Below are positions 9,845-44,379 of a stretch of DNA of 64,000 nucleotides, piece after piece. This DNA is from Planctomycetota bacterium (lineage in GTDB: Bacteria > JAJVIF01 > JAPKYR01). The notes beneath the pieces are model-generated. The model had not been told where the DNA came from. It was given only the letters and a program-made list of their open reading frames with translations, and made no database searches. Each line of letters opens with the position of its first letter. Within the stretch, counting starts at the first letter, position 1. The stretch covers positions 2,603 to 66,602 of the forward strand of contig JAUWTM010000004.1 of NCBI GenBank assembly GCA_030614715.1, in the 5' to 3' direction. Made by a program: the position numbers and the translations under genes.

Positions 9845-10846
9845 CTATAACAGATGACCGGCATTGAGGGGTAATATCTGGAGGATGTACAGCCAGATCC
9901 AGAAAAGGACGGCGACATACGTGGCGAGTGTGTGCACGATTGTCTTCCACCACGCCAGCCTGTGAAGACCCCCGACAATCCATGCGTAATACCATCCGGC
10001 TATAAATATCGTGAAAATCGTGGCCATACGCTCACCGTATTGGACCAGCGTCATGACCTCAACCGGGTTGTAAAGCCTCTCGAGGATCAATTCAATATTA
10101 CGGGTGTTGGCAATCGCGATGTAACCGAGCACGAACCTGAAAATCCCGATTATCAACAAAATGATCAACCCGCCGGAGAGAGCCCGGACGGTTCGACTGA
10201 ACGAGGCGTGTCCCCCAAGCATCCGTGCGACCATGTACGCTAGTCCGGCAGACAGGAACACGAGAATCGGGATGCCAAGGACGTACATCGGTATTGCGAT
10301 AAGCGATGGCTCAATCGGAATATCATACGCTGTCCGGTATAACCAGACACTCGCGCGTGAAAAAGGAAGGGCTATGACGAAGAAAGCCGCGAAAATTCCC
10401 GGGTAGAGCACAGGCTGGAGGTTACCGCCCTTGATCGGGTATGGCAGGTTAACCGCGTAGTGCCTTGGAGCGAGGATCAGATGAAGTGAGTTACGGAGTA
10501 CAAGCCAGATATAAGGGTCCTGGTCGGTCCGGGTCGGCAGTGTGTCACCGCAGGTCTGGCACATGGTGCCGATCTCCGCGACGGTACCGCACATCGAACA
10601 TCTGAACCGTTCATCATCGTCAGTTTCGGTTGAAGCCTTCTCCTCCCCCGACACATACGAGACCACGGGAGGATTCTCAGGGTCGGTTGTTTCTACCTCA
10701 GGTTTGCCGATTATACGTTCCGCCCAGCCCATAGCGGCATCTGCTTCTTCACGGATGCGTTTGCGGATGCGGTCGAGCGGGAAGCCGCAGGACGGGCAGA
10801 ATTTATCATTATCCTGTGACTCTCGACCGCAGTCAGGGCAGAACAA
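9845..10846 (-). CDS. double zinc-ribbon protein fused to a Yip1-like multi-TM membrane domain
   Basis: 333 aa; N-terminal CPDCG...CPSCG and CSMCG...CQTCG ribbons; C-terminal five-TM region resembling the Yip1 family. Confidence 0.45.
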   Translation of the reverse strand: MFCPDCGRESQDNDKFCPSCGFPLDRIRKRIREEADAAMGWAERIIGKPEVETTDPENPPVVSYVSGEEKASTETDDDERFRCSMCGTVAEIGTMCQTCGDTLPTRTDQDPYIWLVLRNSLHLILAPRHYAVNLPYPIKGGNLQPVLYPGIFAAFFVIALPFSRASVWLYRTAYDIPIEPSLIAIPMYVLGIPILVFLSAGLAYMVARMLGGHASFSRTVRALSGGLIILLIIGIFRFVLGYIAIANTRNIELILERLYNPVEVMTLVQYGERMATIFTIFIAGWYYAWIVGGLHRLAWWKTIVHTLATYVAVLFWIWLYILQILPLNAGHLL

Positions 10847-10850
10847 TGAG

Positions 10851-11621
10851 CTAGTCCTCCTCTTTCATAATTTCTATCAGGCGGAAGGTGACATCGGAAA
10901 ATGTTATCTCGTCCCCGGGATGCACGCGTATGCGGGTATGCGCCGGGACAGGTTTCTGGTTTACGAAACTGCCGTTGGATGAACCGAGGTCGGTCAGGTA
11001 GAGGAAATTCAATCCCGATGGGGCCAGCTCGAGTGACAGAACCGCGTGCTCGCGAGCCACGTAGGGGCAGTCTTCAAGCGTGACAGTGTTGAGCGGAAGA
11101 CGGCCGACAGTATTATCTCCCTGCCTCAGCCGTGATTTTGTGCCTTCCTCGTCGACAAGGTAAAGACCCGGCGATTCCTCGCCCTCCTTGTCCAGACCCT
11201 TGAATTCCACCTTCAACGCACTGTCGCCGGCGGTTATCACATCTCCCGTTGAAAGCAGGTACCTGCGTCCCGGCGGGATTTTTACCCCGTTCAGAAGCGT
11301 TCCGTTGGAGCTCCTGAGGTCCTCTACGTAGAGTCCGCCGTTTTCAGCGACCAGGGCAAGCTGGATTCGGCTGATGTTCAGGTCGTCCGGTATCTGGATG
11401 TCGCCGAACTCGCGTCCGATCACGGTCCTTATTTTTTTCAGACCTACGCTTCCTCTCTCGGGAAGTATCAAAAACGCCTTGAAATCGAGTTCATCGTCGA
11501 TGTTACCCTCATCCTGAACCGATGATCCCGGTGCTTTCTGGCTCAGCAGCCAACCGCATTCGTTGCACCAGTCCTCGGATTCAGCGTTCTGGACCTTGCA
11601 GATCGGGCAGGTGAGTGTCAT
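10851..11621 (-). CDS. zinc-ribbon plus tandem FHA-domain protein
   Basis: 256 aa; N-terminal CPICK...CNECGW ribbon; two FHA domains (GREFGDIQI...SRIQLAL...SSNGTLLNG and VGRLPLNTV...AREHAVL...SSNGSFVNQ); ATGA translational coupling with the vWA gene. Confidence 0.75.
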   Translation of the reverse strand: MTLTCPICKVQNAESEDWCNECGWLLSQKAPGSSVQDEGNIDDELDFKAFLILPERGSVGLKKIRTVIGREFGDIQIPDDLNISRIQLALVAENGGLYVEDLRSSNGTLLNGVKIPPGRRYLLSTGDVITAGDSALKVEFKGLDKEGEESPGLYLVDEEGTKSRLRQGDNTVGRLPLNTVTLEDCPYVAREHAVLSLELAPSGLNFLYLTDLGSSNGSFVNQKPVPAHTRIRVHPGDEITFSDVTFRLIEIMKEED

Positions 11622-13006
11622 GACTCATCACCACCCTCATCGTCGTCTTCGTCCACGACAGGGGCATCTTCCGAGGTTCGCTTGCCCCGTTCCAGTGTGA
11701 AGGTCGACTGCGCCAGCTTCTTGCTGGCATCCTCCTCTTCACCGCGTGCAAGCTGCTGGATCGCTTCACCAAGCTCCCTGGCTTCCCTTGTGTCACCAGA
11801 CAGGATTAGCGTACGCTGGTAGTCCCTGAGCTGCTCCTGGGCTGATTCCTTGCTGAGAACCCTTGTCCTGATGCCCCTGATGGTGCTTATAAGGTCGCTT
11901 TTTACATTCCGACGGAGGAGTGCCTTATCGACCCGTGGATTTTTACCTCGTTTAATGATCGTGGGATCGTCGACAAACCTTCCGGCAGCCCATCCGGACA
12001 CCTCTCCCTCGACTCCCGTACCGACATGATGGTACCGGGCCTTCACGTCGATCAGCCTGAAGACCCCCGACGGGTGCGGTTCGTACTGGATTGTGCAGAG
12101 GACTGTCTGTTCGGTGTACTTTTCGAGGTCCGGCAGCTGAATTACATGTTTACCATTCTCGTACTTGTGCGGCAGACCGAAGATCTCCTTTATCTTGACC
12201 AGCTTGCGCGGGATGACCTGTAATTCCAGCGCTCGATGGCTTACGTTCAGAAAATGTGCGATTTCCTTCTTGAATATCTTTTTGATCTCGCGGGGACGGG
12301 CCGAGTGGTAAAATCCGCCGCCTGACAGGCGTGCGATCGAGCTCAGGAGGTCCTCGTTGTAATCCAGTCCGATGCCGACCGCGCTCACGCTGCCGCCTTT
12401 ATCGCGAATTGTCTCCGACAGGTTGAAAAATTTTACGTCCTCCGATTCACCGTGTGTCGGACGGCCGTCGGTGAGAAGGACCATTTTATCGATCGTGTTG
12501 TCGCCTGAAAATTCCCTCAGTTCCTTCAGTCCCATTTTCAGTGCAGCGTATATGTCCGTCGAGCCACCTGCTACTTCAACCGAACTCAGACGGCGCTTGG
12601 CCTCGTCCTTGTTGAGGACCCTCCGGCTTGAGAGTATTACAGATGCCTCATGGTCGAAAGCTATCACTGTCAGGCTGTCCCGACCCGTCAACTGGTCGAT
12701 GACAACCCGTCCCGCCTTGAGAACCTCGGTGAACGGACCGCCGAACATGGAATGTGACCGGTCGAGGAGAAGGCAGAGATTCAAAGGTGACTCACGTCCC
12801 GCCTTCGGTTTTTCCTTGGATAAAAGCTCGACAAGCAGGAACGTTTCACCGGCCGACTGGTGCAGTATGAAGCTGTTGAACAGGGCGACGTTCATGTCGA
12901 GAGCATGGACTTCACGTGAGAACTGGTACTCACGCCTGAGATACTCATCGTAGAGATCATCCGGTACTTTCGGGCTTGGAGCGGCTATTTCATCTAAGGG
13001 ATTCAT
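11618..13006 (-). CDS. von Willebrand factor A (vWA) domain protein with acidic C-terminal tail
   Basis: 462 aa; MIDAS-type motif LLLDRSHSM ... TDGRPT; C-terminal DEDDDEGGDES; ATGA coupled to the upstream and downstream genes. Confidence 0.75.
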   Translation of the reverse strand: MNPLDEIAAPSPKVPDDLYDEYLRREYQFSREVHALDMNVALFNSFILHQSAGETFLLVELLSKEKPKAGRESPLNLCLLLDRSHSMFGGPFTEVLKAGRVVIDQLTGRDSLTVIAFDHEASVILSSRRVLNKDEAKRRLSSVEVAGGSTDIYAALKMGLKELREFSGDNTIDKMVLLTDGRPTHGESEDVKFFNLSETIRDKGGSVSAVGIGLDYNEDLLSSIARLSGGGFYHSARPREIKKIFKKEIAHFLNVSHRALELQVIPRKLVKIKEIFGLPHKYENGKHVIQLPDLEKYTEQTVLCTIQYEPHPSGVFRLIDVKARYHHVGTGVEGEVSGWAAGRFVDDPTIIKRGKNPRVDKALLRRNVKSDLISTIRGIRTRVLSKESAQEQLRDYQRTLILSGDTREARELGEAIQQLARGEEEDASKKLAQSTFTLERGKRTSEDAPVVDEDDDEGGDES

Positions 13007-21701: not shown

Positions 21702-23390
<1,689 letters not shown>

Positions 23391-27295: not shown

Positions 27296-28900
27296 TTATT
27301 CTGTATCCTTCGTTTCCTTCATCTTGTCTTCTGCACCCTCATCTTCGGTGGGAGCAGTGATCTCGCCAGCCTTGAATGCAGGTGTGAATGCCTCAAGCGC
27401 CTTCGTGAGCAGCTGGTCCGTTTCATCGTCCATTGCCTGTGTAGTTTTCAATGTATGGAGTACCTGCGGGTACTCGGCCTTCAGCCAGGGAATGAATGTA
27501 TGCTCGAATTTGTCTATATCAGATAGTTCGACCTCGTCAAGGAAGCCTCGGACAGCGGCAAATATGATCGCGACCTGCTCCTCGACCGGCATCGGTACGT
27601 ACTGCGGTTGTTTCAGGACCTCTGTCAGACGTTCACCGCGCCTCAGGCGCTGTAGGGTCGCTTTATCGAGATCGCTTCCGAATTGTGCGAAACTGGCAAG
27701 CTCGCGGAACTGTGCAAGGTCGATTCGAAGGCGTCCCGCGACATCCTTCATCATTTTTGTCTGTGCTTTTCCACCGACACGGCTGACTGACAGTCCAACG
27801 TTGATAGCAGGACGGATACCGGCGTAGAAAAGGTCGCTTTCAAGATAGATCTGACCGTCGGTGATGCTGATTACGTTGGTCGGGATGTATGCCGACACGT
27901 CACCGGCCTGCGTCTCGATGATTGGCACGGCTGTCAGGCTGCCTCCGCCGAGTTCATCATTGAATTTCAACGCCCTTTCTAACAGCCTTGAATGAAGGTA
28001 GAAGACGTCGCCGGGGTACGCCTCACGTCCCGGAGGTCGCCTGATCAGCAGTGACAGCTCGCGATACGCGACCGCGTGCTTGGAAAGGTCGTCGTAGAAT
28101 ATAGCGGCGTGCTGACCGTTCTCGGCGAAGTACTCACCCATTGCACATCCCGCGTACGGAGCGATAAACTGCATCGGTGCCGGATCGCTTGCCGTCGCTG
28201 AGACCACGGTGGTATATGCCATTGCTCCGAAATTCTCAAGGGTCTGAATCACATTGGCCACAGTCGACTGCTTCTGCCCGATTGCTACATAAATGCATTG
28301 GACCGGAGGATCGGCGTCACGCTGGTTAATGATCGTATCCACCAGCAAGGCAGTTTTTCCGGTCTGGCGGTCTCCAATGACAAGCTCCCTCTGACCTCGA
28401 CCGATCGGGATCATGCTGTCGATCGATTTCAGGCCCGTCTGAAGCGGTTCCTTTACCGGCTGACGTTTGACAACGCCGGGTGCGATCCTCTCGATTGGCC
28501 GGGTCTCGGTGAACGAGATCGGACCCTTTCCGTCGAGCGGCTGTCCTACTGCGTTCACGACACGTCCGATTACCGCTGTGCCGACCGGCACCTCTGCAAT
28601 TCGTGCCGTCCGCTTGACCGAGTCTCCCTCCCTGATGTGTCCGCTGGGTGATAAAAGCGCCGACGCTACGTTGTCTTCCTCAAGGTTGAGAACGACTCCG
28701 TAGACGGCGTCACCCGACGGGAGCGGGGGGAATTCGAGAAGCTCACCCATCATCGCTTCATGGAGCCCGTAGATACGTGCAATGCCGTCCCCGATCTGGA
28801 GGATAGTGCCCTCGGATTCCAGCTTCAACGGCTGTGTGAAGCTCTGAAGTTGAGTCTGTATTACGGAAGCAACCTCTTCTGGTCTGAGTGATGAAGTCAC
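27296..28900 (-). CDS. atpA: F1 ATP synthase alpha subunit
   Basis: 534 aa; Walker A GDRQTGKT; conserved alpha-subunit blocks throughout; short acidic C-terminal tail. Confidence 0.95.
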
Positions 28901-29834: not shown

Positions 29835-30413
29835 TCAAATATCTGTATTCCTGTCAGGTACAAACTTTGGAAGCCTTGCAGCCAGCATTGTACGTCTGAG
29901 TTCCCTGAACCTGTGACGCAGGCTGCCGTCGATAACCTTGTCACCCATCCTGATCTGTACTCCGCCGATGATCGACGGATCGATCCTGAGGGCTACCTCG
30001 ACCTCCCTGGTGCTGAATCTCTGGATGGCGTCAACCAGACGCTTCTCAAGGTCCGGTGGCATGGGGATCGCAACGGTAATTTCCGCGTGTTCGACACCCC
30101 TTACCGCGTCGGTATGCTCTGTGTAACGCTCGGCAATATCCGGGATTATGTCCTGACGTCGCTTTTCAATGAGCAGTGACAGGAGTTTCATCATCACGGG
30201 ACTGAGTTTGTCAGACAGGGCAGCATCAAGGACCTTGATTTTCATCTGGGGAGGTATCTTGGGATTCTGGAGAAAACTTCGTGTCTCAGCCGACGCTTCC
30301 CATGTCCTGTGCATAAGGACGATCTCGTCCTTAACGCGCTCGATAGTCGCGAGATCGGGGCAGCTGTTAAGCAGCGCCCTGGCATAACGATCTGCTACGA
30401 CGTTAGCGAACAT
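29835..30413 (-). CDS. atpH: F1 ATP synthase delta subunit (OSCP)
   Basis: 192 aa; N-terminal VADRYARALL typical of delta/OSCP; overlaps the atpF stop. Confidence 0.8.
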   Translation of the reverse strand: MFANVVADRYARALLNSCPDLATIERVKDEIVLMHRTWEASAETRSFLQNPKIPPQMKIKVLDAALSDKLSPVMMKLLSLLIEKRRQDIIPDIAERYTEHTDAVRGVEHAEITVAIPMPPDLEKRLVDAIQRFSTREVEVALRIDPSIIGGVQIRMGDKVIDGSLRHRFRELRRTMLAARLPKFVPDRNTDI

Positions 30414-30906
30414 GCGTCAGTTCCTCCACGAATCGCTCGACAAGCCTCTTGTGCTTTTCCTCGTCCAGGACTTCCATGGCGGCCTGCTGGCCTGCCTTGA
30501 CGCCTACATCGATCACGAAATCCTTGAGTTCGAGACGGGCGTCCTCGAGAATCCTGTCGGTGTCTGCCCTGGCCTTGGCGAGAATCCCCTGTGCTCTTGC
30601 CCTGGATTCATCCTCGATCTGACGGGCAGCGTCCTGCCCCTCCTTGATCGCTTCCTGGATCTTCCTTGTAGCTTCCTCGTTGATCCGGTCGAGATGGCCT
30701 TCGTACTCGGCTTTCAGTTTGTCGAGGTCGGCCTTCTCTTCCTCGATCTTCCTGAAGTTACCGGCGATCTCCTCGCGACGCTGGTCCATGAAGTCGAGAA
30801 TGGGATTCCATGCGAACTTCCGCATCAGCCAGAGAAAGATCGCGAAACCAATAAAATTGGTTAAGATCTGGTTCCCATCAATGCCAAGGGCTTCTAGTGC
30901 TTCCAT
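30403..30906 (-). CDS. atpF: Fo ATP synthase subunit b
   Basis: 167 aa; single N-terminal TM helix followed by a long charged coiled coil. Confidence 0.85.
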   Translation of the reverse strand: MEALEALGIDGNQILTNFIGFAIFLWLMRKFAWNPILDFMDQRREEIAGNFRKIEEEKADLDKLKAEYEGHLDRINEEATRKIQEAIKEGQDAARQIEDESRARAQGILAKARADTDRILEDARLELKDFVIDVGVKAGQQAAMEVLDEEKHKRLVERFVEELTHVR

Positions 30907-31301: not shown

Positions 31302-31943
31302 TTAATGCTCCTCCTCATGAGGACTCATCAGGAGAAGGTAAACGGTTGAGAGCAATGCGAAAACAAGTGCCTGGATGAAACTGCCCAGTAGTGCTATCGG
31401 ATACACCGCCACTTGCGTAGGCAGGAACCAGACTGGTGTGGCTGCAAGTAACATGACAAACACCGCGATCAGGACATCTTCACCGGTGATATTGCCGAAA
31501 AGACGCAGCGACAGGCTGACGGGCTTGGCAAGTTCGCCTATCAGGTGCAGTAAGAACATCAGGGGAGCCATAATAATCTGAGCCTTGTGAGGGTTCTTTT
31601 CAGGAACGTCGCAGAAGTGCAGGAAATAGCCCTTTAAGCCGAGGCTCTTCATTCCATGGTACTGAACCGTCAGGAACACGAACAAAGCCAGTGACAATGT
31701 AATGTTCAGACTGCTTGACGGTGAATGTCCGATGAACGGCACGAGCCCGAACAGGTTCATGAAGAGTATGTATATGAACAGCGTGCCTACCAGCGGCACG
31801 TATTTCCGTCCCTGTGGACCGAGAACGTCCTGCACAAAGCTGTCCAGTCCGCCGAAGATAAGCTCCACGAAGTTCTGGCGGCGTCCGGGGTGTTTTTTCA
31901 TACTTCGGGCAACTATCGCGAAAAATGAGATGATTATGATCAT
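31302..31943 (-). CDS. atpB: Fo ATP synthase subunit a
   Basis: Matches a-subunit C-terminal blocks (KPVSLSLRLFGNITGED; QALVFALLSTVYLLLMSP). Start uncertain: the frame stays open about 230 nt upstream without an ATG, GTG or TTG. Confidence 0.85.
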   Translation of the reverse strand: MIIIISFFAIVARSMKKHPGRRQNFVELIFGGLDSFVQDVLGPQGRKYVPLVGTLFIYILFMNLFGLVPFIGHSPSSSLNITLSLALFVFLTVQYHGMKSLGLKGYFLHFCDVPEKNPHKAQIIMAPLMFLLHLIGELAKPVSLSLRLFGNITGEDVLIAVFVMLLAATPVWFLPTQVAVYPIALLGSFIQALVFALLSTVYLLLMSPHEEEH

Positions 31944-32161: not shown

Positions 32162-32617
32162 TCAGACGGCATCATCTCCCTGTTGACCTGCATGCATATG
32201 TTTTGCATTGAGAATCACGGCATAGACGAGCAATGTTACGAGGAAAACCTGCAGTCCAACTGCGAAACCGACCAGGTTAACCAGCTTCAGGTAAAACGAA
32301 AGAATAAGAACACCATAAACGATGGGAATCTTGGCGAAGAAGACAAGTGCTGCAATAATAATGTTTTGCCTGGATGGATCGAGGACCGACCGGACAAGCA
32401 GCACTATCAGCCATGTGTTAACAACGCCAAACAGTCCACCGTACACGATTCCGTAAGCAAGGCTCGCACCGAAGAAAATGTATGCAAACAACGTAACCAG
32501 ACCCGTCACGATCGCGCAGATGGGAAAAATCTTCTTAAGTATGGCGTAGTCCAGCCCGTTCACATCCTCTTCTTCAACCCATCCTGACTGGCAGGAGCTT
32601 CTCGGGAGTTGCCGCAC
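32162..32617 (-). CDS. AtpI-like small membrane protein leading the atp operon
   Basis: 151 aa; four hydrophobic helices; immediately upstream of atpB; real start probably internal. Confidence 0.45.
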   Translation of the reverse strand: MRQLPRSSCQSGWVEEEDVNGLDYAILKKIFPICAIVTGLVTLFAYIFFGASLAYGIVYGGLFGVVNTWLIVLLVRSVLDPSRQNIIIAALVFFAKIPIVYGVLILSFYLKLVNLVGFAVGLQVFLVTLLVYAVILNAKHMHAGQQGDDAV

Positions 32618-32726: not shown

Positions 32727-34184
32727 TCACATCTTTGAGACTGGAATTCTCAGGGTGAATTCGGCACCGCCATCGGGGTGGTTACGGGCGGATAATTCAC
32801 CACCGTGGTTCTTGGCAATCGAGAAGCTGACGGACAACCCGAGGCCCGTTCCCTCGCCGGGCGGCTTGGTGGTGTAGAAGGGATCGAAGATCTTTTTCAG
32901 GCTGTCCTCCTGGATTCCGGGTCCCGTGTCCCTGATTCGGATTTCGATCCATTTATCGCCCCCCGTTTTTGACAGGGACGTCATGTGGGTGCTGATTTGA
33001 AGCGTGCCGCCGGTGTCCTTCATGGCCTGGGCTGCATTCATCGCGAGATTATGGAAAATCTGCTGAATCTGCTTCGGATCGACGAATATCTCTGGAAGGT
33101 CTTCTGCGATGTCCCACTCGACCGTCACACGCTGGTATATCGGGTGGAATTTGAAAAAATCCAGCACCTGTACCAGGAGTGCATTGATGTCTGAATTCCG
33201 GGGCTGGATCTGCGTCGGGTTGGCAAATTCGAGGGTCCTGCGGATGATATCCTCGATCCTGTCTATATTAGTCAGGATTCGCTGGTACGGTTCCTCGTTA
33301 CCGCCCTCACGTCGCACCCGTTTTGCCAGGACATCGATTACCGTGTATATCCCTGCGATTGGATTACGTATCTCGTGAGCGATTCCTGCAGCGAGGAAGC
33401 CCGTGCTTGCCAGCTTGTCGGCCTGCAGCATCTGTTCCTCGACTCTCATGAGCTCGGTCCGGTCCTCGATGATCGCTACAACGCCTTCGACCTTCCCGTC
33501 GGGGTTCATCTGCGGGATGACGGTCAGGCTGACGGTGAGATCCTCGGGACCTTCACCGCGAAGGGGTTTATTCGTGATTAATGCTTCCTTGTTGTCGAAG
33601 CCTGATTCGATTGCCTCAACCAGTTCAGGATTCATCTCGCCTGATACCCTGTCGAAACTCTGATCGATCAGCGATACAGGGCTCCTGATATTTAGAAGGC
33701 TGGTGAAAGCCCTGTTCACGGCCTTGAAAGTGCGGTCCTTGTCGAGTGAGAAAATCCCAATCGGTGCGGTCCTGATTATCGAGCTTGCGAGCTCGGCACG
33801 TTTACGGATTTCCTCCTCCAGTTTCTTGCGCTGAGTGATGTCGTGCGCGATTACGAGGACGCACTCGACCTCATCGTTATCGTCCTGAATTGGGCTTGCT
33901 GACACGTAAGCCGGGAAGACATCCCCCCCTGAGCGCACGAGAAGAATTTCCCCGTGCCATTCGATCCTGTTCAAAGTCTGGTTGAAAAGGTCCTCGACCA
34001 GCGACCGTGAATATTCTTCTACACCAAGCAGCAGGTCGCGTCCGATCAACCTTTCGGCTTCGATACCGATTTCACTGCTTGCGGATTGATTGACGTAGGT
34101 AATCCGACGCGAAGGGTCGCAGACAAACACCATGTCGTGAGCTTCTGCCAGGTACCTGGAGAGACTGTCGGGGGAAACCGTCAT
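32727..34184 (-). CDS. PAS-domain sensor histidine kinase
   Basis: 485 aa; two PAS-like segments; HisKA H-box HEIRNPIAGI; HATPase_c N/G boxes (HNLAMNAAQA, DTGPGI, GTGLGLS). No response regulator in the window. Confidence 0.8.
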   Translation of the reverse strand: MTVSPDSLSRYLAEAHDMVFVCDPSRRITYVNQSASSEIGIEAERLIGRDLLLGVEEYSRSLVEDLFNQTLNRIEWHGEILLVRSGGDVFPAYVSASPIQDDNDEVECVLVIAHDITQRKKLEEEIRKRAELASSIIRTAPIGIFSLDKDRTFKAVNRAFTSLLNIRSPVSLIDQSFDRVSGEMNPELVEAIESGFDNKEALITNKPLRGEGPEDLTVSLTVIPQMNPDGKVEGVVAIIEDRTELMRVEEQMLQADKLASTGFLAAGIAHEIRNPIAGIYTVIDVLAKRVRREGGNEEPYQRILTNIDRIEDIIRRTLEFANPTQIQPRNSDINALLVQVLDFFKFHPIYQRVTVEWDIAEDLPEIFVDPKQIQQIFHNLAMNAAQAMKDTGGTLQISTHMTSLSKTGGDKWIEIRIRDTGPGIQEDSLKKIFDPFYTTKPPGEGTGLGLSVSFSIAKNHGGELSARNHPDGGAEFTLRIPVSKM

Positions 34185-34291: not shown

Positions 34292-37200
34292 TCACTTCTT
34301 CTTTTTCTTCTTTCCCTTTGCGTCCCTGCGCTGAGTGAAGGGCCGGCGGATTCCGTGCTTCATCTTGCTCGCAGATTCAGCGACCGCGCCACCGATGCTT
34401 TTGGCCCTCGATCTCGCCATATCCAGGTTGGCCTCCGCCTGTTCGTTGTCGGGATCGAATTCAAGTGCCCTGCGGAATTCGTGTATCGCCTGCGTGTAAA
34501 GCGCCTCACGGAAGTAGTAACCGCCAAGCGCATTGTGAGCGTCGGGTGAATTCGGAGCGGTGGCGACAGCAAGCTCATACTCCTCACGGGCTTTGTCCCT
34601 GTTGCCGCGTTCGTAGAGTATATCCGCCAACCTGACGTGACCATCGGCGAAGCCGGGGAACAGGTCGAGTGATTTCATTGCATGCCGCAGCGCGAGTTCA
34701 AGCTGCCCCTTTTCCTTGAATGCCAGGGCGAGCTGGAAGTTGACCGAGAAGCTGTCGGGCTTGATTTCAAGGCCTTTCTGGAACTCCGAGATGGCCTTGT
34801 CCCACATGCCCTCATCGAGGTACGTCGTGCCCTTGGTGACGTAGTGATGAATGACAGGGGCGATGGGGAACCGTCCCGGTGTGATTCTCTGGGCTTCAAT
34901 CAGGTCACCGAACTGGATTACATTAACAGCCATTCCTTCCTTGAGTGTGGATCCGGTCCCCTTGAAACGTGAGCTGGCAAGGGAGATGATCCGCTCGCAC
35001 GCTTCCTGCGTATCGATCGTGCTGGTTACGCAGTTACGGATTTCCACATCCGAGAGAATCCGTCCTAGGTCGGAAGTGCCAAGTATCAGGATGTCGCCGG
35101 CCCTTAGATGTCTTTCCGCAGTCTCGACCTGCACGGTGAGGTCCCGACCAAGCATGCGCTTCTCGTCGGGACGTCGCATGAATTGCCGTATGGTGGAACC
35201 CCTGAGCAGATAAGCGAAGCCTGATCCGACCCTGGCCAGGAAGAGCCGATTCTGGCTGATCGTTGCGATCATCATATCCGCTCCGATTGTGCCGACCTTG
35301 TTAAGACTGAATGAGAATTGGTTTACAAGCCCGTTTGCGCGCTGCATTGCTGAGACTGCAAGCTGGTTGGGGTCATCAAGGATATCGAGACGGCTCAACG
35401 ATGAGTATGAAAATACGCTCTCTGCTTCCCTGAGAGCCTTGTCGGCGCACAGCATCGCTTCGTCGAGGTTGGATGAGACTCCCGATGCAACCCCGAACGC
35501 GCCTCGTATACCGAGATTCGACGGGGGATAACGCATCGCGAACGTCATCTGGACTTTGTCAGCCAGGAGTTCCTCTCCATCGGTCGAGCTTACGGACTGG
35601 TAACTTGCATTACCGGGGATGAACGAGAGGATTTTCTCTTCGGTATCAGCGGCGGCTGCTGTGGCGGCGTAATCATCGAGATCCTCGATCAGCTCCTGCC
35701 AGCTTGAATACCTTGCGGAATAGTCCTTCCTGAGAGCCCTGTCGAGGATTCTCTTAAGATCGGGCGAGACTGACGCTGCTTCCAGACGGTCCTTCGGGTC
35801 CTGGTATACATGCATCCCCGCAATCTCGTGGGGTTCACCCTGGAAGAGGTCCTCACCTGTCAGGAGGTAATAGACCAGGAGGCCCCATGAGTAGATATCT
35901 GACGCCCCGGTTATTTCCCCGAGACCTGTAACCTGCTCGGGGCTCAAATACTCAGAGCGATTCAGCTTCATCGGAGTGTCGTAGAAAATATCCCTTTCGA
36001 ATCCTGATATCTTGGCCTTGATCACAGGCTTGGGAACGAGGAATACGCTCTCCGGTGAGAGTCTGCCGAATACGTCGAACCCGGACGCCCTTAGATAGCT
36101 GAGTGCATCGGCAACCTGGTGCCCGATGGTCACAGCCTGGCCTTCACTCAGGACACCGTAATCCGCGATGTAATCCGCGATAGTGTGCGTCCTCAGCTCA
36201 CTGACAAAGAAATAAGCACCCTTGTCACGGCCGTGATCGAGGATGCGTATCAGCCCGGGATGGTCGTATTCCGACGCCTGGAGCATCCTTTCCCCCCAGG
36301 CATCGTCGAGAGCCCTCGTTTTCGGAATTCGATAAAACCAGAGCATCACGGGTGTATCGGTCCCGAGGTGAGTGCCCGAGTAAAGGTCGAGGTCTTTTTC
36401 CGGCGATGCTCCGAAAGCACCCCCGATATTCAGCAGGCGCTCCTCGAGTCGGTACTTGCCCTTGATGGTTGTGCCCTGATCGATCAGGTGGATGTTAATT
36501 CCGCTGTCGGCACCGCCGATTAACTGGTCGATGTCCTCTGCGAGGTTGTCGTATGTCTGGTACCGGTTCGCTGGATCCTTCTCCAGCATTTTGATCATGA
36601 TGTCGTGGAAGACCAGCGGGATCTCGTATTTCTCCTGGATTTTCGGAAGCGCCTCGGTGTTCATGTGGGCTTCCATGACATCCTGTGGAAGGTCATCGAA
36701 GAGGTACTCACCAGTGACAAACCTGTAAAGTATGCATCCGAGCGAGTAAATATCGGCGCGATCGTCTATCGGTACATCCGGCTCGTCCATCCAGACTTCC
36801 GGAGATGCGTAATGGTACCCGGCCGGTGGAACGCCGTATGTCGTGCGAGAAAATCTGTCGACCTCCGGCAGTCTGAAATCACGCAGGAAAATGTCCTCTC
36901 CACGAGGGTTGATGAGTAAGTGTTCAGGTTTGAGTGCACCATGTGCCTTCAGGAGGCCCTTGACCTTCAGATAGGAGAGTATGGCGATCACCTTGCGTAC
37001 GATCTTCAACGACTGTTCGGGAGAGAGCTTGCCGCGATCCTCAAGGACGCTTGTCATTGAAGACGGCACGTAGGTTTCCACGATGTAATACTGGTTTTTG
37101 TGCCATCCCTGTGCGATCAGGTCGCATACGTGCGGATGCTTGAGCTGCGCACGGTAATAGAGGTCCTTGTTCATCGAGCGGATGAAGCCTTCTTCGCGCG

Positions 37201-38209
37201 ATAATTTTTCATCGAAGAATTTGATGGTGACAAACTTGTCGCGTCCACGTTCAATCGCCTTGTAGAGGCTTGAAAACTGTCCGCTGCCGAGCTCTTCGAG
37301 AACCTCGTACTTGTCATCGATTGTTTCGCCGACGAGACTTCCCTCGGGCTTTGCCTTCTTGAAACTGACTGCAGCGAGTGCGTATGCGACGGCTTCCTTG
37401 AATTCATCGAGTGTCTGGTATCGCTTCGATGGGTCCTTCTGAAGCGCTGTGATAAGGATTTCCTTGACCGCTGACGGAATCTGCTTGTAATACTCGATAT
37501 GGGGACTGGCGTCGATATAGACTTGCTGGTAACGGACCTTCTGAATGTCGGTGTCGTGGAAAAGAGGGAATCCTGTCAGCATTTGATACAGGATCATGCC
37601 CAGTGAATAGATATCCGATGCCTGGGTCATCTCACCGATCCTGTGGATCTGCTCGGGTGATAGGTAGCGGGGATCCTCCCATCGCTTGCGATCGGCCTCA
37701 TCTACCATTTCCATCGCGCGGCCTACATACCAATCCGAAAGTTTGATCTCATTCAGCTCATCGTTGACAAGGATATTACTGGGCTTGATGGCAAGGTGAG
37801 GGGGAAGCCCGATGTTATATCCCACCTCGAGCGCCTCGATCATTTTCAGGGTGGTGGACAATGCACCCGTAAGATCGACCTGCTCTACATCGGTCATGTA
37901 CTCCTTCAGGCTGAGCGGCATGAGCTCTGTTACGATTTTCATGCGGTCGGAGTGACGTCCGACCTCCCAGACCGCGATCAGGTTGGGGTGCTTGACGGTG
38001 CGGAGCATGTTAGCGACGTTCTCGCACTCATTTATGAATCCCTCATGCTCACCGTATGGTTCCTTGAATATCTTTACACACGCGACTCTCGGGTCCTTGG
38101 GGTCTTTTCCCTTGTAAACTAAAGCGGCTTCGCTTCCACGAATGCGGTCAACGGGTTCGAAAGGCATAAGAAGCTCCTGATGATCATTAATCCACACCCA
38201 GCCTATCAA
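34292..38209 (-). CDS. multidomain signalling scaffold: three tandem Ser/Thr-kinase-like domains, a PP2C-like domain, TPR repeats and a poly-Lys tail; all catalytic motifs appear degenerate
   Basis: 1305 aa; kinase subdomains recognisable three times (VAxK lysines, SPE/APE, SDIYSxG); PP2C-like block in the 900s; three or four TPRs; C-terminal KGKKKKKK. Confidence 0.8.
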   Translation of the reverse strand: MIGWVWINDHQELLMPFEPVDRIRGSEAALVYKGKDPKDPRVACVKIFKEPYGEHEGFINECENVANMLRTVKHPNLIAVWEVGRHSDRMKIVTELMPLSLKEYMTDVEQVDLTGALSTTLKMIEALEVGYNIGLPPHLAIKPSNILVNDELNEIKLSDWYVGRAMEMVDEADRKRWEDPRYLSPEQIHRIGEMTQASDIYSLGMILYQMLTGFPLFHDTDIQKVRYQQVYIDASPHIEYYKQIPSAVKEILITALQKDPSKRYQTLDEFKEAVAYALAAVSFKKAKPEGSLVGETIDDKYEVLEELGSGQFSSLYKAIERGRDKFVTIKFFDEKLSREEGFIRSMNKDLYYRAQLKHPHVCDLIAQGWHKNQYYIVETYVPSSMTSVLEDRGKLSPEQSLKIVRKVIAILSYLKVKGLLKAHGALKPEHLLINPRGEDIFLRDFRLPEVDRFSRTTYGVPPAGYHYASPEVWMDEPDVPIDDRADIYSLGCILYRFVTGEYLFDDLPQDVMEAHMNTEALPKIQEKYEIPLVFHDIMIKMLEKDPANRYQTYDNLAEDIDQLIGGADSGINIHLIDQGTTIKGKYRLEERLLNIGGAFGASPEKDLDLYSGTHLGTDTPVMLWFYRIPKTRALDDAWGERMLQASEYDHPGLIRILDHGRDKGAYFFVSELRTHTIADYIADYGVLSEGQAVTIGHQVADALSYLRASGFDVFGRLSPESVFLVPKPVIKAKISGFERDIFYDTPMKLNRSEYLSPEQVTGLGEITGASDIYSWGLLVYYLLTGEDLFQGEPHEIAGMHVYQDPKDRLEAASVSPDLKRILDRALRKDYSARYSSWQELIEDLDDYAATAAAADTEEKILSFIPGNASYQSVSSTDGEELLADKVQMTFAMRYPPSNLGIRGAFGVASGVSSNLDEAMLCADKALREAESVFSYSSLSRLDILDDPNQLAVSAMQRANGLVNQFSFSLNKVGTIGADMMIATISQNRLFLARVGSGFAYLLRGSTIRQFMRRPDEKRMLGRDLTVQVETAERHLRAGDILILGTSDLGRILSDVEIRNCVTSTIDTQEACERIISLASSRFKGTGSTLKEGMAVNVIQFGDLIEAQRITPGRFPIAPVIHHYVTKGTTYLDEGMWDKAISEFQKGLEIKPDSFSVNFQLALAFKEKGQLELALRHAMKSLDLFPGFADGHVRLADILYERGNRDKAREEYELAVATAPNSPDAHNALGGYYFREALYTQAIHEFRRALEFDPDNEQAEANLDMARSRAKSIGGAVAESASKMKHGIRRPFTQRRDAKGKKKKKK

Positions 38210-43095: not shown

Positions 43096-44379
43096 CTAAA
43101 TTATTTCGAGTTCCGCCTGCAGTGCGCCCGATGCTTCGAGCGCCTGAAATATAGCTACAATATCCGTTGGAGTCGCGCCAAGTGCATTCAGCGCTGCCAC
43201 AAGATCCTCAGATGTAATGCGTACGAAATTAGCGGGACTTTCCTCTATCACGGTTCCCGCACGGGGCAGGGCAAGCGAGTAACCACCGCTGATGGGCGGA
43301 CCTCCCTCGCCGTAGATATTCGCTACGGTGATTGACAGGGCTCCGTGTGCAATGGCAACTGGAATGATCTGCACCCCGGCACCCATCACGATCGTACCCG
43401 TTCGTTCATTGATAATAACCTTGTTGGGTATATCAGGTACCACGGTCAGATTTTCCACTTCCGAAATGAACCTGACGATATCGTTTTCATAATTGCGCGG
43501 TACGTAGATCTCGATACTTGCAGCGTCGACAGCCATTACGTCGGTGACCGATGGAAAAGACCTTGCGATCTGGTCTCTCAGTCGTATGGCGGTTGTGAAA
43601 TCAGGAGGCATCAGTACAAGGGTGAGAATGTTGTCCTGGGTGAGCTCAAAATCGACCTCACGCTCCACGTAAGCACCGTTGGGTATCCGTCCGACGGTCA
43701 GGAAGTTGGTCTGGCTCCTTGTGCCACCGGAGCCACCGCCCGCACCGAATCCTGCAAGGCTCACGGGTCCCTGCGCGACCGCATATATCTCTCCGTTTGC
43801 AGCCTTCAGTGGCGTCATGATCAGGACGCCACCCTGGAGGCTCTCGCAGTCGCCCATCGCCGCGACGGTTACGTCAATTGAATCGCCCTCGCGTGCAAAC
43901 GCAGGAAGGTCGCACAGGATCATTACTAGAGCGAAGTTCTCGACCTTGATCTCATTCGGGTCGGTTGGAAAACCGGCCCTGTTGAGCATATTGGCTATCG
44001 CCTGGGCAGTAAAGTCGACCGACGATGAGTTATCTCCTGTGCCGGCTAGGCCGGTAACCAGCCCTATCCCTAACAGCTGGTTTCCCCGGACCCCGAGGAT
44101 ACGCGCGATATCCTTCACACGGACTTCGGGGTATCTCGATTCGTAGTCGTCAGGTCCGAATTCCCAGAATTCCATCTGGTCTTCCTCGGAATTTTCCGCG
44201 TCCGTTCCGGTATCCGTGTCCGTTCCGTTATCCATGTCCTGATCGACAGCAGCGGTGACGTCCGGGCCTAAGTCGGGCTCCTCACCGTTACCGAAAGCCG
44301 CTGCAGGGAACAGTCCCAGCAGGATTATCAGGGTGATACGGATAAATGAACTCAGTAATTGCTTTTGAATGCTGGCCAT
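43096..44379 (-). CDS. flgI: flagellar P-ring protein
   Basis: 427 aa; signal peptide; conserved FlgI core (VRVKDIARILGVRGNQLLGIGLVTGLAGTGD...). An acidic insert of about 50 aa follows the signal peptide. Confidence 0.9.
   Translation of the reverse strand: MASIQKQLLSSFIRITLIILLGLFPAAAFGNGEEPDLGPDVTAAVDQDMDNGTDTDTGTDAENSEEDQMEFWEFGPDDYESRYPEVRVKDIARILGVRGNQLLGIGLVTGLAGTGDNSSSVDFTAQAIANMLNRAGFPTDPNEIKVENFALVMILCDLPAFAREGDSIDVTVAAMGDCESLQGGVLIMTPLKAANGEIYAVAQGPVSLAGFGAGGGSGGTRSQTNFLTVGRIPNGAYVEREVDFELTQDNILTLVLMPPDFTTAIRLRDQIARSFPSVTDVMAVDAASIEIYVPRNYENDIVRFISEVENLTVVPDIPNKVIINERTGTIVMGAGVQIIPVAIAHGALSITVANIYGEGGPPISGGYSLALPRAGTVIEESPANFVRITSEDLVAALNALGATPTDIVAIFQALEASGALQAELEII

What the first reader, a model, noticed from the sequence alone, without database searches (positions are those of the whole stretch)
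34292..38209. 1305-aa scaffold of three pseudokinase domains plus a pseudo-PP2C domain plus TPR repeats
Three complete Ser/Thr-kinase-like domains are present, each with a recognisable VAxK lysine (domains 1 and 2), SPE/APE and SDIYSxG blocks. In every one the HRD catalytic loop is degenerate: HLAIKPSN, HGALKPEH, FGRLSPES, so the catalytic Asp is absent. Domain 3 also lacks the beta3 lysine. The following PP2C-like domain likewise appears to lack metal-binding aspartates: FGVASGVSS where DGHGG is expected, and RVGSGFAYL where GDSRAY is expected. The protein ends with TPRs and a KGKKKKKK tail. An all-pseudoenzyme multi-kinase/phosphatase scaffold is rare in bacteria. It sits directly upstream of an orphan PAS histidine kinase and about 20 kb from the FHA/vWA operon.
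Basis: partly seen in the sequence, partly recalled or inferred. Interest (0 to 1): 0.7.

Follow-up and report, generated by a model that had tools for sequence, protein, structure and literature searches.

The report
Four-domain all-pseudoenzyme kinase/phosphatase scaffold protein
This gene encodes a large soluble bacterial protein of three kinase-like domains, one PP2C-phosphatase-like domain and TPR repeats; every catalytic centre has lost key residues, yet the protein is strongly conserved, so it most likely acts as a non-enzymatic signalling scaffold.

Summary
The gene (34292..38167, minus strand) starts at an ATG with a Shine-Dalgarno site, 14 codons inside the listed ORF, so the protein is 1291 aa, not 1305. 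It has three Hanks-type kinase folds, a PP2C fold, about four TPRs and a polybasic tail.

Alignments to PknB and StkP place HLA, HGA and FGR exactly where HRD belongs. Alignment to 60 ordinary PP2Cs puts S, S, S and E where four metal-binding Asp residues belong. Nothing is offset.

About 28 orthologue clusters (43-79% identity) exist, all in uncultured MAGs, some labelled Planctomycetota. Every domain is under strong purifying selection.

New findings:
- The KD1 catalytic Asp is kept (H[LM]D) in the distant half of the family. It was lost only in the window's subclade and once more independently.
- A sister family of about 9 clusters has two dead kinase domains, a dead PP2C and TPRs.
- No gene neighbourhood is conserved across the family.

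Best reading: a cytoplasmic non-catalytic scaffold or allosteric switch in Ser/Thr phospho-signalling. KD2, and perhaps KD1, may still bind nucleotide. This is inferred, not shown. It is a new variant of known pseudoenzyme themes, of moderate interest.

The parts
34292..38167 (-). Coding sequence of the 1291-aa protein (stop codon at 34292-34294)
   Evidence: ORF. Start fixed by orthologue N-termini and the Shine-Dalgarno site. A 100% identical protein, P0001, exists in the database.
38174..38178 (-). Shine-Dalgarno AGGAG, 6 nt upstream of the ATG
   Evidence: Read directly from the sequence.
37358..38167 (-). KD1, kinase-like domain 1 (aa 1-270). Gly-loop is degenerate (RGSEAA). K32, N131 and D145 (DWY) are kept. 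HRD is replaced by HLA.
   Evidence: phmmer to S. aureus PknB 4eqm, E 3e-22, with residue alignment. Family motif table. AF2 pLDDT about 90.
37775..37798 (-). KD1 catalytic loop HLAIKPSN (aa 124-131). The catalytic Asp is replaced by Ala.
36512..37312 (-). KD2, kinase-like domain 2 (aa 286-552). GSGQFS, VTIK (K316), D335 in helix C and DFR (D430) are kept. HRD is replaced by HGA, and the catalytic-loop Asn by His.
   Evidence: phmmer to M. tuberculosis PknB/PknE, E 2e-22, with alignment. Motif table.
36920..36943 (-). KD2 catalytic loop HGALKPEH (aa 409-416)
35663..36457 (-). KD3, kinase-like domain 3 (aa 571-835). It has no beta3 Lys (MLWFY), FGR in place of HRD, Ser in place of both the loop Lys and the loop Asn, and SGF/GFE in place of DFG.
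   Evidence: phmmer to StkP, E 2e-17, with alignment. Motif table. AF2 strand assignment.
36047..36070 (-). KD3 degenerate catalytic loop FGRLSPES (aa 700-707)
34898..35542 (-). Pseudo-PP2C domain (aa 876-1090). S895, S982, S1032 and E1077 sit at the Asp metal-ligand columns. The TxDHS motif is deleted.
   Evidence: AF2 model. Foldseek PDB top hits are PppA, STP, PstP and tPphA. Profile alignment to tPphA 2xzv. MAFFT with 60 PP2Cs.
34418..34837 (-). TPR region, about four repeats (aa about 1111-1250)
   Evidence: Pfam TPR_2, TPR_11, TPR_1 and related models, E 1e-19 to 1e-8.
34295..34417 (-). Conserved C-terminal segment (AKSIxGAxAExASKxKHGIRxPF) ending in a polybasic tail (KGKKKKKK)
   Evidence: There are 16 Lys/Arg in the last 45 residues.
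32727..34184 (-). Downstream PAS-PAS-HisKA-HATPase histidine kinase, 107 nt after the stop codon. It is a possible co-transcribed partner only in the closest subclade.
   Evidence: Pfam. Synteny holds in L005, L006 and L007 but not in L002, L003, L011 or L012. No terminator-like site on the minus strand in the gap.

Best explanation
The gene encodes a soluble cytoplasmic signalling scaffold or allosteric switch built entirely from catalytically disabled signalling enzymes: three Hanks-type pseudokinase domains, one PP2C pseudophosphatase domain, a TPR module and a polybasic tail.

Shown:
- The folds are present.
- The catalytic Asp is missing in all three kinase domains of the window protein.
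- No Asp occupies any of the four aligned PP2C metal-ligand columns.
- There is no transmembrane segment.
- All domains are under strong purifying selection.
- The protein is a single-copy orthologue across a lineage of uncultured bacteria.

Inferred:
- KD2, and possibly KD1, still bind nucleotide and act as conformational switches. KD2 keeps an intact GxGxFS loop, the beta3 Lys, a helix-C acid at the canonical spacing and the DF motif. KD1 keeps the Lys, the loop Asn and the DW[YF] Asp.
- KD3 is a pure protein-interaction domain.
- The pseudo-PP2C keeps the fold and many invariant Arg residues. It may bind, without hydrolysing, a phospho-Ser/Thr protein or a partner kinase, as TAB1 does.
- The TPRs recruit further partners.
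- The basic tail tethers the assembly to an anionic surface such as membrane or nucleic acid.

The family records stepwise loss of catalysis. KD3 and the PP2C domain are dead in every member and in a sister family. KD2 is dead in nearly all members. KD1 lost its Asp only recently.
For: Fold and homology: Pfam Pkinase x3 at E 2e-78; per-domain PDB hits at E 1e-17 to 1e-22 with residue-level alignments; AF2 of aa 1-845 gives mean pLDDT 85 with three kinase folds.

PP2C fold: AF2 pTM 0.76 and Foldseek E 3e-13, probability 1.0, to PppA, PstP and tPphA.

Dead sites:
- HLA, HGA and FGR align to HRD.
- S895, S982, S1032 and E1077 occupy columns that are 97-98% Asp in 60 ordinary PP2Cs.
- D34, D119 and D193 of tPphA align to S, S/G/T and G/S/T/A across the family.

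Selection: pN is 0.10-0.21 against saturated pS of about 0.74 in every domain. The pseudo-PP2C is the most conserved domain, with 26% invariant columns.

Retained nucleotide-site residues: K32, N131 and D145, and G294, G296, K316, D335 and D430, are invariant in 17 orthologues.

Other points: no hydrophobic segment (maximum hydropathy 1.08). The sister family P0164 and P0272-P0279 has the same dead architecture. PPM phosphatases need two or three metals, and TAB1 and PHLPP2 are PP2C-fold pseudophosphatases (PMC12002173).
Against: No binding or activity was measured. Everything rests on sequence and predicted structure.

No partner is identified, and gene neighbourhood is not conserved across the family.

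Some kinases lacking canonical residues are still active. From my own knowledge: WNK, CASK, weak HER3, SelO.

KD1 keeps the Lys, Asn and Mg-binding Asp, and its relatives keep HxD, so residual or non-canonical catalysis cannot be excluded.

AF2 gave no confident inter-domain arrangement (pTM 0.44), so a rigid scaffold is not supported either.

The KD1 helix-C acid (E49) lies two residues before the column of the PknB Glu in the gapless alignment.
Confidence: 0.6

Rival explanations
1. One kinase-like domain, most plausibly KD1, is still an enzyme. It would phosphorylate through a non-canonical mechanism or carry out a different nucleotide-dependent reaction such as AMPylation or glutamylation. 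The other domains would regulate it in cis, as in JAK JH2-JH1 or plant tandem kinase proteins.
For: KD1 keeps K32, N131 and D145 and an invariant acidic residue in helix C. Eight distant orthologues keep a full H[LM]D[IL][KR][PS]xN loop, and P0020 has HQDLKPAN in KD2. Purifying selection on KD1 is the strongest of all domains (dN/dS about 0.04).
Against: All 16 members with at least 64% identity whose sequence covers the loop have Ala or Gly at the catalytic-base position. The Asp was also lost independently in P0028, which suggests it is dispensable for the conserved function. The KD1 Gly-rich loop is degenerate in every member (RxR[GS]S..A). No substitute acid is visible in the loop.
Confidence: 0.15
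2. The protein is a dedicated accessory or regulator of the downstream PAS histidine kinase, linking Ser/Thr-type and two-component signalling. The two genes would form one operon.
For: The genes are on the same strand with a 107-nt gap and no terminator-like site on that strand. The histidine kinase orthologue (55-70% identity) lies immediately downstream in L005, L006 and L007.
Against: The histidine kinase is absent downstream in L002 and L003, which are 73-75% identical orthologues, and in the distant L011 and L012, whose neighbours are an RM methylase, an ABC transporter and an alpha-2-macroglobulin. The pairing therefore cannot explain conservation of the protein across the family.
Confidence: 0.15
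3. It is an immune sensor or decoy. It would resemble plant tandem kinase-pseudokinase resistance proteins, or bacterial anti-phage kinases such as PD-T4-6, MADS Mad6 or BREX PglW.
For: PADLOC kinase models (PD-T4-6, mad6, MkoA, PglW) and NCBIfam MAD6 hit the protein. An Eco57I-type methylase lies next to the gene in L011 and L012.
Against: The hits are generic kinase-domain similarity summed over three domains and fall far below the family cut-offs (MAD6 242 against 460 bits; PglW 75 against 990). There is no effector domain. The window neighbours are housekeeping genes: the F-ATPase operon, a radical SAM gene and DsbD. The family looks like a vertically inherited orthologue with saturated synonymous divergence, not a mobile defence gene.
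Confidence: 0.05
4. It is a decaying, functionless remnant of a multi-kinase/phosphatase gene.
For: Catalytic residues are lost in all four enzyme-like domains.
Against: There is an intact 1291-codon ORF with a Shine-Dalgarno site. About 28 full-length orthologue clusters exist down to 43% identity. pN is far below pS in every domain. 13-26% of columns are invariant in each domain.
Confidence: 0.02

Closest known systems
Bacterial Hanks-type Ser/Thr kinases of the PknB/StkP type, and their partner PP2C phosphatases (PstP, Stp1, PppA, tPphA)
   Same: These are the closest solved structures for each kinase-like domain (E 1e-17 to 1e-22) and for the PP2C-like domain (Foldseek E about 1e-12). The C-lobe blocks APE/SPE and DIYSxG are shared.
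   Different: There is no PASTA domain and no transmembrane segment. The protein has three kinase domains in one chain, fused to the phosphatase fold. The catalytic Asp is missing in all three kinase domains, and no Asp sits at the four aligned metal-ligand columns of the phosphatase fold. The NCBIfam PknB_PASTA_kin score of 342 is below the cut-off of 450.
TAB1 and PHLPP1/2 (eukaryotic PP2C-fold pseudophosphatases)
   Same: They have a PP2C fold with lost metal ligands and no phosphatase activity, and they act as kinase-binding or regulatory adaptors (PMC12002173; the TAB1-TAK1/p38 role is from my own knowledge).
   Different: They are eukaryotic, unrelated in architecture, and still hold one metal in the M2 site. 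Here the four aligned ligand columns hold S, S, S and E in the window protein, and none is a conserved acid across the family. No partner is known.
Tandem kinase-pseudokinase proteins (plant TKPs such as WTK1/Yr15; JAK JH2-JH1)
   Same: Several kinase-fold domains sit in one polypeptide, with at least one pseudokinase regulating or sensing (PMC6170490, listed).
   Different: Those keep at least one active kinase domain. The window protein keeps none by sequence criteria. It is bacterial and has an added pseudo-PP2C and TPRs. Distant orthologues with H[LM]D in KD1 may fit this model better.
Described bacterial pseudokinase families (ActPs1-3, GLW, CP1, DYD, DLHK; also YukC/EssB and the MviN pseudokinase)
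   Same: These are bacterial Hanks-fold domains with degraded catalytic motifs and unknown or scaffolding roles (PMC12599244).
   Different: The review and the bSTK atlas do not mention tandem kinase domains or PP2C fusions. The review does not mention TPR either; the atlas reports TPRs with single kinase domains only (text searches). Membership in any of those families was not tested with their models.
Planctomycetota and myxobacterial STKs with C-terminal TPR arrays; PknG
   Same: A kinase domain followed by TPR repeats is a common architecture (PMC11032199; 10.1101/2025.01.12.632604).
   Different: Those have a single, usually KDD-intact, kinase domain. Many are membrane proteins with periplasmic TPRs. 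None is reported with a pseudo-PP2C domain.
Sister family P0164, P0272-P0279 (uncharacterised, metagenomic)
   Same: It is colinear with aa 454-1239 of the window protein at 23% identity, E 1e-39. It has two dead kinase domains, a dead PP2C and TPRs.
   Different: It lacks the N-terminal KD1 and the polybasic tail, and its dead-site residues differ (HG for DG; GE[NS] for GDS).

Membership tests
Hanks-type (eukaryote-like) protein kinase superfamily, Pfam PF00069 | Kinase fold and sequence profile above the curated threshold | tested here: met
   Three Pkinase stretches, 263.7 bits against a cut-off of 31.7. PDB hits at E 1e-17 to 1e-22. AF2 pLDDT 85.
Catalytically competent Ser/Thr kinase | Catalytic-loop Asp (HRD) | tested here: not met
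   KD1 has HLA, KD2 has HGA and KD3 has FGR at the aligned positions.
Catalytically competent Ser/Thr kinase | Beta3 Lys (VAIK) and Mg-binding Asp (DFG) | tested here: inconclusive
   KD1 has K32 (VACVK, offset by one) and D145 (DWY). KD2 has K316 (VTIK) and D430 (DFR). KD3 has neither (MLWFY; SGFE).
Pseudokinase (sequence definition: lacks at least one of Lys, HRD Asp or DFG Asp) | At least one of the three residues is missing | tested here: met
   All three domains lack the HRD Asp, and KD3 lacks all three residues. Definition as in PMC11032199 and PMC13519141 (abstract).
PPM/PP2C phosphatase | PP2C fold | tested here: met
   AF2 model with pTM 0.76. Foldseek probability 1.0, E 3e-13 to 1e-11, to PppA, STP, PstP, tPphA and Stp1. 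The family profile finds 2008 PP2C-type proteins at E<1e-3.
PPM/PP2C phosphatase | Curated sequence-model threshold | tested here: not met
   Pfam SpoIIE 13.5 bits against 25, with no PP2C or PP2C_2 hit. NCBIfam Stp1_PP2C 35.7 bits against 230.
PPM/PP2C phosphatase | Asp ligands of the M1/M2/M3 metals (tPphA D34, D119, D193, D231; also D18) | tested here: not met
   S895, S982, S1032 and E1077 occupy columns that are 97-98% Asp in 60 PP2Cs. The NED motif has no conserved counterpart, and TxDHS is deleted. E1077 is not conserved in the family.
TPR repeat proteins | TPR profile matches above threshold | tested here: met
   TPR_2 66.8 bits, TPR_11 64.7 bits, TPR_1 53.9 bits, and others.
Tandem kinase-pseudokinase proteins (JAK-like or plant TKP-like) | At least one catalytically intact kinase domain next to the pseudokinase(s) | tested here: not met
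   The window protein has no intact HxD loop. Distant orthologues P0019-P0027 do have H[LM]D in KD1.
Anti-phage kinases (MADS Mad6, BREX PglW, PD-T4-6) | Family-specific model above cut-off, and a defence-island context | tested here: not met
   MAD6 241.9 against 460 bits; PglW 74.9 against 990. PADLOC hits are generic kinase matches. Neighbours are housekeeping genes.
Named bacterial pseudokinase families (ActPs1-3, GLW, CP1, DYD, DLHK) | Family-specific motif patterns and domain partners (for example COG3899 for CP1) | not testable with these tools
   Their profiles are not available here. The described architectures do not include tandem kinase domains, PP2C or this TPR combination.

The most novel reading that the evidence does not exclude
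Together with its sister family, this defines an undescribed bacterial superfamily of 'pseudo-signalosomes'. These would be single chains in which nucleotide-binding pseudokinases act as switches and a pseudo-PP2C acts as a phospho-Ser/Thr or kinase-binding reader. That would make them a prokaryotic counterpart of eukaryotic pseudoenzyme scaffolds such as TAB1, KSR, STRAD and PHLPP. The family would also be a natural series capturing the stepwise conversion of an active kinase (KD1 with HxD in deep branches) into a pseudokinase.
Probability: 0.3. Interest if true: 0.7.

Novelty: new variant of a known kind. Interest (0 to 1): 0.5.

Why it matters
Bacterial pseudokinases are recognised but almost unstudied experimentally (PMC12599244). 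I found no description of a bacterial PP2C pseudophosphatase or of an all-pseudoenzyme kinase/phosphatase fusion in four full-text searches.

The protein shows that a whole phospho-signalling toolkit (kinase x3 plus phosphatase) can be kept under strong selection after losing catalysis. This implies that binding or switching functions are the selected trait.

Orthologues differ in whether KD1, and rarely KD2, keeps the catalytic Asp. The family therefore offers matched active-looking and dead pairs for testing what a kinase fold does once catalysis is gone.

The practical limit is that all members come from uncultured MAGs, so function must be approached with recombinant proteins.

Tried and rejected
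1. Residue-level alignments to PknB, StkP, tPphA and 60 PP2Cs found none.
2. Conserved operon or partner. tblastn of ten window neighbours against 12 loci, plus Pfam of neighbours in L002 and L011, showed only subclade-level synteny with the PAS histidine kinase and a B12-radical SAM gene.
3. Defence-system reading. PADLOC and NCBIfam hits are generic kinase similarity.
4. Frameshift as the cause of the window-specific NQFSFSLNK in place of the family's NQEAFRLNK. The DNA shows in-frame multi-nucleotide substitutions.
5. Inter-domain architecture from AF2. pTM was 0.44, so nothing could be concluded.
6. Rfam scan of the window. It found only RNase P RNA, with nothing near the gene.
7. Promoter and terminator scan. 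Counts were no higher than in shuffles.
8. Taxonomy from cluster members gave no names. Only record titles ('bacterium', 'Planctomycetota bacterium') are available.
9. A literature search for Myxococcus Mkap TPR multi-kinase adaptors found nothing in the held library.
10. dN/dS values are only indicative, because synonymous sites are saturated.

Full report
**1. The gene**

A single minus-strand ORF spans 34292..38209. All orthologues start MPFEP, and AGGAG lies 6 nt upstream of the ATG at 38167. The product is therefore 1291 aa, encoded at 34292..38167. An identical protein, P0001, is in the public collection. No 19-residue window exceeds a Kyte-Doolittle mean of 1.08, so the protein is soluble and has no signal or transmembrane segment.

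**2. Domain content**

Pfam reports three Pkinase stretches (263.7 bits, E 2e-78), about four TPRs, and only a sub-threshold SpoIIE match (E 0.07) between them. NCBIfam gives sub-threshold PknB-type hits and a weak Stp1-type PP2C hit (E 6e-9).

Each kinase-like domain searched alone against PDB sequences finds bacterial PknB, PknE or StkP at E 1e-17 to 1e-22. AlphaFold2 on aa 1-845, with a 13-sequence family alignment, gives three confident kinase folds (mean pLDDT 85). The linkers at 268-275 and 553-560 are disordered, and pTM is only 0.44. The domains are therefore well supported but their mutual arrangement is not.

**3. Kinase catalytic residues**

The printed alignments put HLAIKPSN, HGALKPEH and FGRLSPES exactly on HRDIKPQN, HRDVKPAN and HRDLKPQN.

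| Domain | Lost or degenerate | Kept |
|---|---|---|
| KD1 | HRD Asp (HLA); Gly loop degenerate (RGSEAA) | K32 (VACVK, one residue off a strict VAIK), N131, D145 (DWY), invariant acidic residue in helix C (E49) |
| KD2 | HRD Asp (HGA); loop Asn replaced by His | GSGQFS, K316 (VTIK), D335 at the canonical helix-C position, D430 (DFR) |
| KD3 | Beta3 Lys (MLWFY on the predicted beta3 strand), HRD, loop Lys and Asn, DFG Asp | None of the catalytic residues |

In KD1, E49 lies 17 residues after the Lys but two residues before the PknB Glu column in the gapless alignment.

By the usual Lys/Asp/Asp definition (PMC11032199), all three domains are pseudokinases. KD1 and KD2 are of the kind that could still bind nucleotide. 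KD3 is not. That last point is inference.

The KD1 activation segment contains no Ser or Thr and is rich in acidic residues.

**4. The PP2C-like domain**

A family sub-alignment (A2, aa 840-1110) gave an AF2 model with pLDDT 72 and pTM 0.76. Its Foldseek neighbours in the PDB are exclusively PP2C phosphatases. PppA, S. agalactiae STP, PstP, tPphA and Stp1 lead at E 3e-13 to 1e-11, probability 1.0.

The profile's best PDB sequence hit is tPphA (2xzv). There, D34, D119 and D193 align with Ser, Ser/Gly/Thr and Gly/Ser/Thr/Ala.

A search of 1.84 billion representatives with the same profile found only the family itself below 1e-30, and about 2000 ordinary PP2Cs below 1e-3. In a MAFFT alignment with 60 of those, the columns that are 97-98% Asp hold S895, S982, S1032 and E1077 in the window protein. 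None of these is a conserved acid across the family. The TxDHS motif is deleted, and the RxxNED motif has no conserved counterpart.

PPM enzymes need two or three active-site metals (PMC12002173), so this is a pseudophosphatase by sequence criteria.

**5. The family**

About 28 clusters (P0001-P0028; 1260-1293 aa when complete; 43-79% identity) share the full architecture. After them, similarity falls to 26% identity over one kinase domain.

Twelve genomic loci were recovered. All are from uncultured MAGs titled 'bacterium' or 'Planctomycetota bacterium'.

Every domain is conserved, with 13-26% invariant columns. The pseudo-PP2C is the most conserved at 26%. Against three orthologues, pN is 0.10-0.21 while pS is saturated at about 0.74 in all domains. 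The gene is therefore under strong purifying selection and is not decaying.

The three kinase domains are only 24-30% identical to each other, so the tandem arrangement is old.

**6. Catalytic loss is graded across the family**

- In KD1, all 16 members with at least 64% identity that cover the loop have H[LI][AG]IKPxN.
- Eight more distant members have H[LM]D[IL][KR][PS]xN, with the Asp, the Lys/Arg and the Asn all present.
- P0028, from the distant group, has HMG. This is a second, independent loss.
- In KD2, only P0020 has HQDLKPAN. P0019 has HQE.
- KD3 and the PP2C domain are dead in every member.

The 'all-pseudoenzyme' state is therefore derived and specific to the window's subclade. The repeated loss suggests that the conserved function does not need the Asp.

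**7. A sister family**

P0164 was found through the PP2C profile. It aligns colinearly with aa 454-1239 of the window protein at 23% identity, E 1e-39. It has eight relatives.

These proteins carry:
- two kinase-like domains without catalytic Asp (HG[HYF]; YGG.KPTN);
- a PP2C-like region that Pfam does not recognise, with HG for DG, GE[NS] for GDS and LS[KR] for SDG;
- TPRs.

The module of dead kinases, dead PP2C and TPR is thus older than the family. KD1 looks like a later N-terminal addition; this is inference.

P0234 shows that a pseudokinase fused to an intact PP2C also exists. Other metagenomic proteins have two or three kinase domains, and most keep at least one HRDxKxxN loop. In P0033 and P0046 a regex found none, but this was not checked by alignment.

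**8. Gene context**

- Downstream, 107 nt away on the same strand, lies a PAS-PAS-HisKA-HATPase histidine kinase, followed by atpI and the F-ATPase genes.
- Upstream and divergent are a B12-binding radical SAM gene and a DsbD-like gene.
- The histidine kinase is syntenic in L005, L006 and L007. It is not in L002, L003, L011 or L012.
- The radical SAM gene is syntenic in L001, L006 and L008.
- Distant orthologues sit next to an alpha-2-macroglobulin, an amidohydrolase, an ABC transporter and an Eco57I-type methylase.

No partner is conserved family-wide. The FHA/VWA/zinc-ribbon operon is real (9845..13006), but it is 21 kb away and nothing links it to this gene. PADLOC hits are generic kinase matches.

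**9. Interpretation**

The best-supported reading is a cytoplasmic non-catalytic scaffold or allosteric switch in Ser/Thr phospho-signalling (confidence 0.6).

- Shown: the folds, the missing catalytic residues, conservation and solubility.
- Inferred: nucleotide binding by KD2 and possibly KD1; partner or phospho-protein binding by the pseudo-PP2C (as TAB1 does); recruitment through the TPRs; anionic-surface tethering by the polybasic tail.

Rivals are residual or non-canonical catalysis in KD1 (0.15), a dedicated partnership with the PAS histidine kinase (0.15, and not exclusive with the scaffold reading), an immune sensor or decoy (0.05), and a functionless remnant (0.02, refuted by selection).

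**10. Novelty**

Pseudokinases, PP2C pseudophosphatases, tandem kinase proteins and kinase-TPR fusions are all known. The recent review of bacterial pseudokinases and the bSTK atlas do not mention tandem kinase domains or PP2C fusions. Two further searches found no bacterial all-pseudoenzyme kinase/phosphatase fusion.

I rate it a new variant of a known kind, with interest 0.5. It is a clean and unusual case with an informative evolutionary series. However, it has no functional handle, and it occurs only in uncultured organisms.

Noticed in passing
window 35303-35329 (aa 949-957 of the protein): The window protein reads NQFSFSLNK where the aligned relatives read NQEAFR[LVIQ]NK, so the near-invariant E951, A952 and R954 are replaced. 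The change is due to in-frame multi-nucleotide substitutions, not a frameshift. It could be a local adaptive change or an assembly or consensus artefact.
   Followed up: partly
window 21702-23378 (-): The ATP synthase beta-like ORF is 558 aa, with the ATP-synt_ab domain split into two stretches. This suggests an insertion of about 90 aa. The surrounding 18-22 kb region has a markedly lower GC content (0.40-0.47 against about 0.52).
   Followed up: no
window 24320-26647 (-): A 775-aa ORF with no Pfam match sits within the string of F-type ATP synthase genes (alpha 27296-28900, delta 29835-30413, b 30403-30906, a 31302-31943, I 32162-32617).
   Followed up: no
window 55056-56060 (+) and 56090-56449 (+): IspF (YgbB) appears fused to an RNase H / RVT_3-like domain. 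It is immediately followed by a class A RNase P RNA (260.6 bits).
   Followed up: no
window 9845-13006 (-): An operon encodes a zinc-ribbon protein, a protein with two FHA-type domains and a VWA protein. FHA domains read phospho-Thr, so this is a candidate client of Ser/Thr signalling in this genome. No link to the studied gene was found.
   Followed up: partly
P0164, P0272-P0279 (metagenomic proteins, not in the window): This sister family of 1006-1097 aa proteins has two dead kinase domains, a dead PP2C-like domain that Pfam does not detect, and TPRs. It is 23% identical and colinear with the window protein.
   Followed up: partly
P0234 (metagenomic protein): This 564-aa protein has a zinc ribbon, a kinase-like domain lacking HRD (CLAVHPEQ) and a PP2C with all canonical motifs (NED, DGMGG, GDSR, CDGL, DN). 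It is a pseudokinase fused to an apparently active phosphatase.
   Followed up: no
window 43096-44379 (-) and 49503-52106 (-): A flagellar P-ring protein FlgI and a secretin are encoded here, so the organism is probably a flagellated diderm.
   Followed up: no
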